A stretch of 64,000 nucleotides of DNA from Escherichia coli (GCF_044324785.1 NZ_CP172127.1); one strand, 5' to 3'; positions 30,460 through 31,196 are shown, counted from the stretch's first letter. Translations and numbers: made by a program. The notes: generated by a model from the sequence alone, not told the origin.

Positions 30460-30468
30460 CCATCAACG

Positions 30469-30495
30469 AAAAAGCCCACATCTGTGGGCTTTCAT
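30469..30495 (+). terminator. Rho-independent terminator of ypjA
   Basis: agcccacatctgtgggct hairpin followed by a T-rich tract, about 10 nt after the stop codon. Confidence 0.6.
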
Positions 30496-30619
30496 ATCAC
30501 CAGGAGCCGCGGCTCCTTTGCGTATCCTTTTATGTCTCCTCACCGTCTGGTCGGTGTCTTGCTGAGACTTCTAACTTCCTGTTTTTGTTGGTGTTGTCCT
30601 TGCACCGTCCAATCATGAT

Positions 30620-30982
30620 TGGTGGAGCTGGCGGGAGTTGAACCCGCGTCCGAAATTCCTACATCCTCGGTACTACATGCTTAGTCAGTCTTTACATTCG
30701 CTTGCCAGCTGCGGACGGACACGCCACTAACAAACTAGCCTGATTAAGTTTTAACGCTTCAACCCCAGGCAGGGCTTCCACGCGATCTCTTTTGGGTTTG
30801 ACCTCTCTTGATCCCCGTCCTAAGAGCGGAGGCTAGGGAGAGAGGGCTCTAAGCAGGTTATTAAGCTGCTAAAGCGTAGTTTTCGTCGTTTGCGACTATT
30901 TTTTGCGGCTTTTTACGAGGCCAACCGCCCCTCGGCATGCACCTTGGGTTTCGCAAATCCCGTCGAATCCAGAATCAGCCCC
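30620..30982 (-). ncRNA. ssrA: tmRNA (SsrA, 10Sa RNA), 363 nt
   Basis: Reverse complement runs GGGGCTGATTCTGGATTCGACGGG…GCAAACGACGAAAACTACGCTTTAGCAGCTTAA (tag reading frame ANDENYALAA)…GGTTCAACTCCCGCCAGCTCCACCA. Confidence 0.97.
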
Positions 30983-31196
30983 AATGTGTAACGGTAAGTA
31001 TACCAGATTTATGAGTGCCATGACCAGCCTCAATGGCGTTATCGTTAAAGATTTAGCACCCATGTAGCCTGATTTTTATTCGATTAAGCAATGGGATGGC
31101 AACATTTGTGTCGGATGTGATAGCCAATAAGATGTTCATTCGCGCCGCCGGAGAGGGAGGCGCGGTGAGGAACTGGTCAATAATTGGAGTGCAGGT

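What the first reader, a model, noticed from the sequence alone, without database searches (positions are those of the whole stretch)
30460..31000. tmRNA (ssrA) 3' attachment site appears unoccupied: no integrase or prophage between ssrA and ypjA
The 3' CCA end of the 363-nt tmRNA gene (30620, minus strand) lies about 160 bp from the stop and terminator of the ypjA autotransporter gene. No integrase, excisionase or phage ORF occurs anywhere in the flanking 10 kb. In E. coli K-12, as I recall it, the cryptic prophage CP4-57 (intA … yfjZ/ypjF) is inserted exactly at the ssrA 3' end, ahead of ypjA. This window would then represent the prophage-free (attB-like) configuration of a well-known integration hotspot.
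Basis: partly seen in the sequence, partly recalled or inferred. Interest (0 to 1): 0.45.

Follow-up and report, generated by a model that had tools for sequence, protein, structure and literature searches.

The report
Empty ssrA integration site, relic-flanked
In this E. coli stretch the docking site for phages and islands at the end of the tmRNA gene holds no intact element, an ordinary state shared by roughly a quarter to half of sequenced E. coli, although the DNA beside it contains stubs of earlier occupants.

Summary
ssrA lies at 30620..30982 (-), 160 bp from the ypjA stop codon. No integrase, excisionase, repressor or ogr homolog was detected anywhere in the 64-kb window.

Base-level comparison with K-12 MG1655 shows a CP4-57-free attB. 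The window matches the K-12 smpB-ssrA side up to the CCA, then continues into the sequence that in K-12 follows the CP4-57 attR ("psaA"). The two alignments overlap by 16 nt at the ssrA end. ssrA keeps T357, so this is not the crippled K-12-type excision scar.

The state is common. 1393 of 5426 complete E. coli genomes have the same 2-kb arrangement, and 2533 share the 201-nt junction.

One refinement: the flank is not pristine. A degenerate second ssrA end at 25139..25160 is a hybrid junction, with a CP4-57-type attR arm on one side and a Fels-2-type attP arm on the other. Next to it lie an IS3 fragment and the pinH invertase stub. The 160-bp "spacer" is homologous to the attP trailer of phage LLS and carries an ssrA-oriented terminator.

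This is well-known biology and of low interest.

The parts
30620..30982 (-). ssrA (tmRNA gene), intact, with T357 present
   Evidence: ARAGORN. Rfam RF00023 at 295.8 bits, full model. 100% identical to K-12 and Nissle ssrA.
30619..30634 (-). 16-nt block (CCGCCAGCTCCACCA+A) shared by the K-12 attL-side and attR-side alignments; the CP4-57-type crossover region of the attB
   Evidence: Overlap of the two local alignments. K-12 annotates CP4-57 as starting 15 nt before the ssrA end, with a 14-nt psaA at attR.
30620..30664 (-). 45-nt ssrA 3' segment that Fels-2/P2-type prophages duplicate perfectly; the LLS-type phage carries the last 39 nt
   Evidence: Perfect 45-nt copy at the far end of the P2-type prophage in strain 120899. 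LLS annotation 'tmRNA pseudogene', 39 nt.
30460..30619 (-). 160-bp ssrA 3' trailer ('spacer'), homologous to the attP trailer of LLS-type phages. It contains the palindrome GGAGCCGCGGCTCC (30503..30516).
   Evidence: 89% identity to the phage LLS attP region; also matches phiNP, Ayreon and the PhiR12 phages. 9-sequence alignment with conserved blocks.
30471..30492 (-). Intrinsic-terminator hairpin followed by a T-run in the ssrA direction. It lies 12 nt past the ypjA stop and is probably shared by the two convergent genes.
   Evidence: dG -13.7 kcal/mol. Homologous positions in Nissle, Mangrovibacter, Photorhabdus, Rosenbergiella, LLS and phiNP carry different self-complementary stems, each followed by a T-run.
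25891..30459 (+). ypjA (adhesin-like autotransporter YpjA/EhaD), intact, convergent with ssrA
   Evidence: tblastn with K-12 YpjA: 93.4% over 1526 aa. RefSeq names in near-identical genomes.
25319..25483 (+). pinH remnant: fragment of a phage-type serine DNA invertase (Fin/Pin family), residues about 40-94, with an internal stop
   Evidence: tblastn with LLS Fin: 56% identity, E 9e-11 and 4e-12. A stop codon is present. Orthologous to the K-12 pinH pseudogene and to the 'recombinase family protein, incomplete' in strain N3.
25239..25304 (.). Fragment of about 65 nt from an IS3-family transposase gene
   Evidence: 86-87% identity to IS3 copies.
25161..25214 (-). Relic attR arm of a CP4-57-type (P4-integrase-type) island
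   Evidence: Aligns with the island side of the K-12 CP4-57 attR. The best-conserved stretch is ACCAATTCAGAC next to the core. blastn E 1.7e-6 over 77 nt. A 40-nt probe scores 48 against a maximum of 31 in 30 shuffles.
25139..25160 (-). Degenerate displaced copy of the ssrA 3' end (TTCAGACACCGCCAGCTC-ACCA), in the same orientation as ssrA
   Evidence: Fuzzy search. Ortholog in K-12 beyond pinH. Present at >=80% coverage in 3050 of 5426 genomes, with no feature annotated under the match in any of the 17 full-length rows listed.
25077..25138 (-). 62-nt relic of the ssrA-proximal attP arm of a Fels-2/P2-type phage, including its terminator hairpin (25103..25130)
   Evidence: 97% identical to the sequence directly following ssrA in genomes that carry a P2-type prophage there. 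88-97% identical to the attP of Fels-2, SopEPhi, RE2010, SEN8, 500465-1 and Cartapus. Hairpin dG -19.8.
19731..30468 (.). 10.7-kb segment (amylase-like gene, tRNA ileY, ypjCB, relic junction, pinH, ypjA) absent from Nissle 1917, where 333 bp of unrelated sequence joins the trailer to the glaH upstream region
   Evidence: Annotation and blastn of the Nissle locus. Low G+C (32-43%) over 19600-25800.
31197..31679 (-). smpB, the conserved partner gene upstream of ssrA
   Evidence: ORF. RefSeq annotation of near-identical genomes.

Best explanation
Shown:
- This is the E. coli smpB-ssrA-ypjA region with the ssrA 3'-end attachment site unoccupied.
- A single intact ssrA, with T357 present, runs directly into the 160-bp trailer that lies beyond the CP4-57 attR in K-12.
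- No integrase-bearing element is present.

Inferred:
- The site should be a competent attB for the three integrase classes seen using it in relatives. The CP4-57/P4 type crosses over in the last ~16 nt. The Fels-2/P2 type uses a 45-nt identity block. The LLS type uses a 39-nt fragment, with its annotated core in the T-arm.
- The tmRNA should be fully functional.

History of the flank:
- The flank records earlier traffic. Integration regenerates ssrA and pushes the old 3' end outward, so older elements lie further from ssrA.
- The hybrid junction at 25077..25214 shows that a Fels-2-type prophage once sat at ssrA. It consists of a CP4-57-type attR arm, a degenerate core and a Fels-2-type attP arm. 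A CP4-57-type island then inserted between ssrA and that prophage. Both have since been deleted to stubs of under 100 nt.
- Inferred at about 55-60%: the ssrA-proximal trailer and the pinH stub, and perhaps ypjA as cargo, are remains of a still later LLS-type phage. The remaining weight is on the rival readings below. An IS3-associated deletion may have removed the rest of that phage.
- Each element family supplies its own hairpin terminator just downstream of the ssrA CCA. In this window, ssrA transcription would end at the 30471..30492 hairpin, about 150 nt past the mature end.
For: - Gene calls.
- K-12 order, with CP4-57 between ssrA and ypjA.
- Junction alignments of 99.6% and 97.4% with a 16-nt overlap. 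Sequences read directly.
- Single full core copy.
- No integrase, excisionase, CI or ogr homolog by tblastn.
- Population frequency: 1393/5426, 2533/5426, 3020/5426 over 73 nt.
- Only one genome, the lab strain DTU-1, carries the exact deltaT357 scar junction.
- The scar is known to inactivate tmRNA: PMC10107115, read.
- Relic core and its significance.
- K-12 ortholog of the relic.
- Fels-2-type arm.
- Living arrays in strain 120899 and Enterobacter sp. Bisph1.
- Trailer homologous to the phage LLS attP.
- Same order and relative orientation (trailer, cargo, Fin invertase) in LLS, in a Mangrovibacter prophage with tail and baseplate genes and in the window (pinH).
- Terminator covariation.
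- General principle of a regenerated target plus a displaced fragment, and of tandem arrays: PMC4383910.
Against: - No experiment here shows that the site is integration-competent or where ssrA transcription stops. The simple terminator scan did not flag the 30471..30492 hairpin on the minus strand.
- The LLS-type trailer occurs next to ssrA in 11 of 57 sampled species from several genera, among them Proteus, Xenorhabdus, Photorhabdus, Arsenophonus, Rouxiella, Rosenbergiella and Mangrovibacter. This could instead mean an ancient native trailer that phages copy.
- Nissle 1917 has the trailer with no ypjA or pinH. That fits 'native trailer plus later insertion' as well as 'deletion'.
- The divergence test was inconclusive.
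- No LLS protein other than Fin matches the window.
- Nothing shows that ypjA arrived as phage cargo.
- A past occupant with perfect repeats, such as the Fels-2 type, could have excised without leaving a trace.
Confidence: 0.85

Rival explanations
1. The site is empty because a CP4-57-type element excised recently, as happens in K-12 when AlpA is overexpressed. The window would then be a post-excision scar.
For: CP4-57 is excision-proficient in K-12 (PMC10107115). One genome in the collection, lab strain DTU-1, shows exactly that scar junction.
Against: Excision of CP4-57 leaves CGCCAGC-CCACCA (deltaT357). The window has CGCCAGCTCCACCA and an ssrA 100% identical to wild type. All other full-length rows listed align to the scar query with the one-base gap expected of the wild type. 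Excision of an element with perfect repeats cannot be excluded, but it leaves no evidence either way.
Confidence: 0.03
2. The 160-bp trailer is the ancient, native 3' flank and terminator of ssrA in Enterobacterales. LLS/phiNP-type phages carry a copy in attP so that integration restores it. Under this reading the window's site is a truly ancestral attB. The 10.7-kb ypjA...amylase segment, including the relic junction, was inserted or rearranged downstream of it.
For: The trailer family lies directly after ssrA in 11 of 57 species spanning several genera. Nissle 1917 has ssrA-trailer-333 bp-glaH with none of the 10.7 kb. K-12 has the trailer just beyond the CP4-57 attR, as expected for a native flank. 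The terminator hairpin is maintained by compensatory change.
Against: - A displaced ssrA fragment carrying a CP4-57-type attR arm lies beyond the trailer, in ssrA orientation. Under the standard integration mechanism, everything between ssrA and a displaced fragment arrived with or after that island.
- The distribution is patchy, and the conserved blocks align even between distant genera and phages, which is typical of mobile DNA.
- In Mangrovibacter and Enterobacter sp. Bisph1 the trailer sits at the ssrA-proximal end of a prophage or prophage remnant.
- The pinH stub has the position and orientation of Fin in those phages.
Confidence: 0.3
3. The second ssrA-like sequence at 25139..25160 is a chance resemblance, and there is no relic array.
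For: The match to ssrA alone is short: 18 of 23 positions with an indel. The 30-nt ssrA probe scores only marginally above shuffles (28 against a maximum of 26).
Against: Both flanks independently match known att arms. The 77-nt core-plus-arm stretch matches the Fels-2-type phage arm at 97% (E 1e-29). The opposite side matches the CP4-57 attR arm (probe score 48 against a shuffle maximum of 31, E 1.7e-6). The orientation equals that of ssrA. The segment is conserved in K-12 and in 3050 of 5426 genomes.
Confidence: 0.02
4. The apparent emptiness is an assembly artefact, with a collapsed or missing island.
For: None specific. Islands at tRNA or tmRNA genes are sometimes misassembled in drafts.
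Against: The same contiguous arrangement occurs in 1393 complete genomes at up to 99.3% identity over 2 kb. The junction is base-for-base what attB should be.
Confidence: 0.01

Closest known systems
CP4-57 cryptic prophage att sites at ssrA in E. coli K-12 (attL in ssrA, attR = 'psaA')
   Same: Same locus, same target sequence and same flanks. The window equals the K-12 attL left side plus the K-12 attR right side, joined through a 16-nt common block.
   Different: No CP4-57 is present. ssrA keeps T357, whereas the K-12 excision product is deltaT357 and inactive in trans-translation (PMC10107115).
Fels-2 / SopEPhi / P2-family phages integrating at ssrA
   Same: The window retains 62 nt of this family's ssrA-proximal attP arm, with its hairpin, directly after a displaced ssrA-end copy at 25077..25160. 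The 45-nt target block in ssrA is intact.
   Different: Only the arm stub survives. No P2-type integrase, CI or ogr homolog was found in the window.
Escherichia phage LLS and Citrobacter phage phiNP attP regions (tmRNA fragment plus trailer)
   Same: The window's 160-bp trailer is 86-89% identical to the LLS trailer and has the same conserved blocks and terminal hairpin. LLS, a Mangrovibacter prophage and the window share the order and relative orientation ssrA end - trailer - cargo - Fin/Pin invertase.
   Different: In the window only a 55-codon invertase stub remains. No LLS integrase, excisionase or tail genes are present. The direction of descent, phage to host or host to phage, is unresolved.
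Tandem island arrays at tRNA/tmRNA genes (Islander; Williams, 'Traffic at the tmRNA gene', 2003)
   Same: The logic is the same: a regenerated target, displaced fragments marking island ends, and newest elements nearest the gene (PMC4383910). Living examples were seen in strain 120899 and in Enterobacter sp. Bisph1.
   Different: The array members here have no integrase. They would fail Islander's filter, which requires each member to have its own integrase. I could not read Williams 2003, so I cannot say whether the second fragment beyond pinH was already described.
Other ssrA-integrated E. coli islands (espC PAI of EPEC; Oi108 of EDL933; Eco48X of RS218 and Ecoc48X of CFT073)
   Same: Same hotspot (PMC7545054; Table 1 of PMC10107115).
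   Different: None of these elements is present in the window.

Membership tests
Unoccupied attB of the ssrA (tmRNA gene) integration hotspot | Intact target gene with a single full-length copy of the att core | tested here: met
   Full tmRNA model match. One copy of the 25-nt core at <=3 mismatches, with 0.00 expected by chance.
Unoccupied attB of the ssrA (tmRNA gene) integration hotspot | The sequence equals the left flank of attL plus the right flank of attR of an occupied genome, joined through the common core | tested here: met
   99.6% and 97.4% alignments to the two K-12 junctions, overlapping by 16 nt.
Unoccupied attB of the ssrA (tmRNA gene) integration hotspot | No integrase or excisionase adjacent to the target | tested here: met
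   tblastn with P4-type, P2-type and LLS-type integrases, AlpA and the LLS Xis: no hit in 64 kb.
Unoccupied attB of the ssrA (tmRNA gene) integration hotspot | Supports site-specific integration by a cognate integrase | not testable with these tools
   Needs an integration assay. Inferred only from sequence identity of the target blocks.
K-12-type CP4-57 excision scar (ssrA deltaT357) | One-base deletion in the ssrA 3' end (CGCCAGC-CCACCA) | tested here: not met
   The window has CGCCAGCTCCACCA. The exact scar junction occurs in only 1 of 5426 genomes.
Tandem array of tDNA-integrated islands (Islander definition) | A displaced tDNA fragment in the same orientation as the tDNA marks the end of each member | tested here: met
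   Fragment at 25139..25160 on the ssrA strand, flanked by two different att arms.
Tandem array of tDNA-integrated islands (Islander definition) | Each member has its own integrase gene | tested here: not met
   No tyrosine integrase homolog was found in the window. The members are relics, so this is a decayed array and not a current one.
LLS-type temperate phage remnant | tmRNA 3' fragment followed by the conserved ~150-nt trailer with terminal hairpin | tested here: met
   89% identity over 190 nt to the annotated LLS attP region. Alignment A2.
LLS-type temperate phage remnant | Fin/Pin-type invertase downstream of the trailer, on the strand opposite ssrA | tested here: met
   pinH stub at 25319..25483 (+), 56% identical to Fin residues 40-94. 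Same layout in LLS and in Mangrovibacter.
LLS-type temperate phage remnant | LLS-type integrase, excisionase or structural genes, or a matching attR arm | tested here: not met
   No other LLS protein matches the window. The next att arm outward is CP4-57-type, not LLS-type. Membership therefore stays an inference.

The most novel reading that the evidence does not exclude
The whole interval between ssrA and glaH in most E. coli, about 11 kb here, would be a stratified graveyard of at least three successive ssrA-integrating elements. Working inward toward ssrA, these are a Fels-2-type phage, a CP4-57-type island and an LLS-type phage. Under this reading the terminator E. coli now uses for ssrA would be phage-supplied. 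The YpjA/EhaD adhesin gene, possibly also ypjCB and tRNA ileY, would have entered the species as cargo of such elements. The junction at 25077..25214 carried no annotation in any record I inspected, and would be the fossil that dates the order of arrivals.
Probability: 0.45. Interest if true: 0.35.

Novelty: already known. Interest (0 to 1): 0.12.

Why it matters
The finding as stated adds nothing new. ssrA is the best-known tDNA integration hotspot, and empty and occupied alleles are both common in E. coli.

It has some practical use:
- The strain has a free, wild-type attB for ssrA-targeting phages, islands or integrase tools.
- Its tmRNA is intact, unlike K-12 derivatives cured of CP4-57.

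The relic junction is a small but tidy illustration of two points. Serial integrations leave ordered fossils, and each element family brings its own terminator for the host's tmRNA gene. As a result, the pre-tmRNA 3' trailer differs between strains according to occupancy history.

Tried and rejected
1. Synthetic 'ancestral' junction (ssrA end plus the sequence beyond the relic core) searched in 5426 genomes. No genome covers >=80% of it. This search did reveal the Fels-2-type arm.
2. Divergence test for a native versus phage-derived trailer. Window-Nissle trailer identity (88-89%) is about the same as window-LLS (86%). However, the neighbouring smpB-ssrA intergenic region is only 80% identical between the same two strains, so the test is uninformative.
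3. YpjCB as phage cargo. There is a full-length match to phrog_30093, of unknown function, but no tblastn match in 50,697 phage records. Left open.
4. The 750-aa amylase-like ORF and the 92-aa ORF at 25300..25578 have no PHROG match.
5. The simple promoter/terminator scan reported only a weak plus-strand hairpin and missed the ssrA-direction terminator. That terminator was established by comparative alignment instead.
6. RNAalifold proposed a long-range pairing between the ssrA acceptor 3' strand and the trailer block GGAGCCGCGG. All of those columns are invariant, so there is no covariation support. Not adopted.
7. Williams 2003 (PMC142792) is not held. A first literature search was swamped by photosystem 'psaA' hits. 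A search for papers containing both ypjA and ssrA returned four, none of which appeared from title or abstract to deal with the locus structure; I did not read them.
8. The 72-aa ORF at 30423..30641, which overlaps the trailer and the ssrA end, was treated as spurious. Six-frame translation of the spacer is broken by stops in five of six frames.

Full report
**1. The observation**

- ARAGORN finds a 363-nt tmRNA gene (tag ANDENYALAA) at 30620..30982 on the minus strand. Rfam's tmRNA model matches the same coordinates end to end at 295.8 bits.
- The long plus-strand ORF ending at 30459 is ypjA. K-12 YpjA aligns over all 1526 residues at 93.4% identity to 25891..30456. RefSeq calls it 'adhesin-like autotransporter YpjA/EhaD' in near-identical genomes.
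- The 25-nt terminal core GGTTCAACTCCCGCCAGCTCCACCA occurs once at up to three mismatches, with 0.00 expected by chance.
- tblastn with K-12 IntA and AlpA, the LLS integrase and excisionase, and a P2-type integrase, CI and Ogr finds nothing in the 64-kb window.

**2. Comparison with K-12**

- NC_000913.3 annotates smpB, then the 22-kb 'cryptic prophage CP4-57' (intA ... ypjF), then a 14-bp pseudogene psaA, then ypjA, pinH and ypjB.
- Read in ssrA orientation, the window runs ...CCAGCTCCACCA|ATCATGATTGGACGGTG....
- The K-12 attL runs ...CCAGCTCCACCA|AAATTCTCCATC... into intA.
- The K-12 attR runs ...ACTCCGCCAGC-CCACCA|ATCATGATTGGACGGTG... into ypjA.
- Window 31176->30619 is 99.6% identical to the K-12 smpB-ssrA side. 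Window 30634->30406 is 97.4% identical to the attR-ypjA side. The two alignments overlap by 16 nt at the ssrA end. This is the expected attB.

**3. How common it is, and which kind of 'empty' it is**

- A 2-kb query across ypjA-ssrA-smpB is contiguous in 1393 of 5426 complete E. coli genomes.
- A 201-nt junction query is contiguous in 2533 genomes.
- A 73-nt query is contiguous in 3020 genomes.
- Some of the extra genomes are strains such as Nissle 1917. They keep ssrA plus the trailer but lack ypjA altogether.
- Excision of CP4-57 in K-12 leaves ssrA deltaT357 (CGCCAGC-CCACCA). This abolishes trans-translation and shifts ribosome rescue to ArfA (PMC10107115).
- The window has the T, and its ssrA is 100% identical to wild type.
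- A query built as the scar junction is matched exactly and in full by one genome only, the laboratory strain DTU-1. All other full-length rows listed show the one-base gap.
- So the window is the ordinary functional allele, not an excision product of the K-12 kind.

**4. A second, degenerate ssrA end**

- Allowing indels, a copy TTCAGACACCGCCAGCTC-ACCA appears at 25139..25160. It is on the ssrA strand, beyond ypjA.
- On its ssrA-proximal side the sequence aligns with the island side of the K-12 CP4-57 attR, most clearly in ACCAATTCAGAC next to the core. A 40-nt K-12 attR probe scores 48, against a maximum of 31 in 30 shuffled windows. blastn gives E = 1.7e-6 over 77 nt.
- On its distal side, the next 62 nt (AATAAATCAAGGGGTTACGTGAAAGCGTAGCCCCTTTTTC...) are 97% identical to the sequence that directly follows the ssrA CCA in many E. 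coli genomes.
- In strain 120899 that sequence is the ogr/D-side end of a complete P2-family prophage. The far end of that prophage carries a perfect 45-nt ssrA-end copy. It abuts a further island whose P4-type integrase is disrupted by IS100.
- The same 62 nt plus core match the attP of Fels-2 (annotated as attP), SopEPhi, RE2010, SEN8 and others at 88-97%.
- The site is therefore a hybrid junction: CP4-57-type attR arm, core, Fels-2-type attP arm. Under the standard mechanism (PMC4383910), a Fels-2-type prophage was resident first. A CP4-57-type island then integrated between it and ssrA.
- K-12 has the orthologous junction beyond pinH, with no feature there in its annotation table.
- The segment is present at >=80% coverage in 3050 of 5426 genomes. 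No feature was annotated under the match in any of the 17 full-length rows listed.
- Beside it lie an IS3-family fragment of about 65 nt (25239..25304) and the pinH stub.

**5. The 160-bp spacer**

- The spacer is 89% identical over 190 nt to the region of Escherichia phage LLS annotated 'tmRNA pseudogene / attP'. It also matches Citrobacter phage phiNP, Ayreon and the PhiR12 phages.
- LLS has the order xis - int - gene 31 - [39-nt tmRNA fragment + trailer] - cargo genes - serine invertase Fin - invertible tail-fibre genes.
- The window's pinH stub (25319..25483) matches Fin residues 40-94 at 56% identity. It has the same orientation relative to ssrA.
- In Mangrovibacter yixingensis the same trailer follows ssrA. 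Next come one cargo ORF, a full-length Fin homolog (77% identity), tail-fibre assembly genes and baseplate genes.
- In Enterobacter sp. Bisph1 the trailer is followed by an LLS-type integrase, then a CP4-57-type arm with intA.
- An alignment of nine trailers shows about 120 nt of conserved blocks, for example GGATACGCAAAGGAGCCGCGGCTCC. It ends in a hairpin whose stem differs between lineages but is always self-complementary and followed by a T-run in the ssrA direction. Stabilities range from -8 to -18 kcal/mol.
- The CP4-57 arm and the Fels-2-type arm carry their own hairpins just downstream of the CCA, at -23.7 and -19.8 kcal/mol.
- I infer that each element family supplies the terminator for the regenerated ssrA. 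In this window the terminator would be the 30471..30492 hairpin, which also lies 12 nt past the ypjA stop.

**6. Native or phage-derived trailer?**

- Among 57 species-level loci with an identifiable ssrA end, 39 have the CP4-57-type arm, 11 the LLS-type trailer, 3 the Fels-2-type arm and 4 are singletons. IntA homologs were found in 35 loci.
- The LLS-type trailer occurs in several genera (E. albertii, Mangrovibacter, Photorhabdus, Xenorhabdus, Proteus, Arsenophonus, Rouxiella, Rosenbergiella).
- That pattern is compatible with an old native trailer copied by phages, and the Nissle arrangement (ssrA-trailer-333 bp-glaH) fits this reading.
- Four points argue against it. The displaced CP4-57-type fragment lies beyond the trailer, the distribution is patchy, the blocks are conserved between distant genera and phages, and pinH has the position and orientation of Fin.
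- I put about 55-60% on 'left by an LLS-type phage' and about 30% on 'native'. The divergence test could not decide.

**7. Verdict**

- The interpretation that this is a CP4-57-free attB is supported.
- The state is common and the biology is well known, so interest is low.
- The relic junction and the phage-like trailer are refinements of a known kind of thing, namely tandem and decayed islands at tDNAs.
- I could not check whether Williams (2003) had already recorded the relic junction.

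Noticed in passing
window 22679..22754 (+): ARAGORN calls this tRNA 'Met (CAT)'. RefSeq annotates the orthologous gene in strain N3 as tRNA-Ile. From my own knowledge this is ileY, a CAU tRNA read as Ile after lysidine modification. It sits inside the low-GC block.
   Followed up: partly
window 19600..25800: Low-G+C block (32-43%, against about 50-55% on either side). It covers the 750-aa 'alpha amylase C-terminal domain' gene, ileY, ypjCB and the relic junction. The whole of 19731..30468 is missing in Nissle 1917. 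The amylase-like gene is truncated by IS3 in strain 120899.
   Followed up: partly
window 23505..24959 (+): ypjCB is an intact 484-aa ORF here. It matches phrog_30093 (unknown function) over its full length (E=0), yet has no tblastn match in 50,697 phage records. Its origin is unresolved.
   Followed up: partly
window 30609..30622: A perfect 14-nt palindrome, CCAATCATGATTGG, spans the ssrA CCA end and the first bases of the trailer. It is largely conserved in K-12, Nissle, Mangrovibacter and phage LLS. Its function is unknown; it could be an integrase core-type site or a processing hairpin.
   Followed up: no
window 30503..30530 and alignment A2 columns 119-144: The block GGATACGCAAAGGAGCCGCGGCTCC is nearly invariant across hosts from distant genera and two phages. 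RNAalifold pairs GGAGC/GCGG with the ssrA acceptor 3' strand, but without covariation. It may be an arm-type protein-binding site.
   Followed up: no
L024 (Photorhabdus tasmaniensis) 10898..11098; L041, L035: The 200-nt CP4-57 attL arm of E. coli K-12 is 97% identical in a Photorhabdus, 95% in Pluralibacter and 95% in a Pantoea. This points to recent spread of this island family across genera.
   Followed up: no
window 30983..31196 compared with L005: The smpB-ssrA intergenic region is only about 80% identical between the window and Nissle 1917, although ssrA itself is 100% identical and the 1.5-kb block is 96.5% identical. This could be an indel or a recombination patch upstream of ssrA.
   Followed up: no
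L003 13643..14248 compared with window ~36453..36510: Strain 120899 has a DUF6630-family gene between yfjD and grpE. It has no counterpart in the window.
   Followed up: no
hits H4-H7: A few genomes with the otherwise empty configuration carry an IS4-family insertion within the 2-kb ypjA-ssrA-smpB stretch.
   Followed up: no
window 56935..57010 (+): A tRNA-Glu gene. I did not examine it. From my own knowledge of K-12 gene order it may lie in the spacer of an rRNA operon.
   Followed up: no
L002 (strain N3) 8094..12660: In the closest genome, N3, ypjA is annotated as frameshifted, whereas the window's ypjA is an intact ORF.
   Followed up: no
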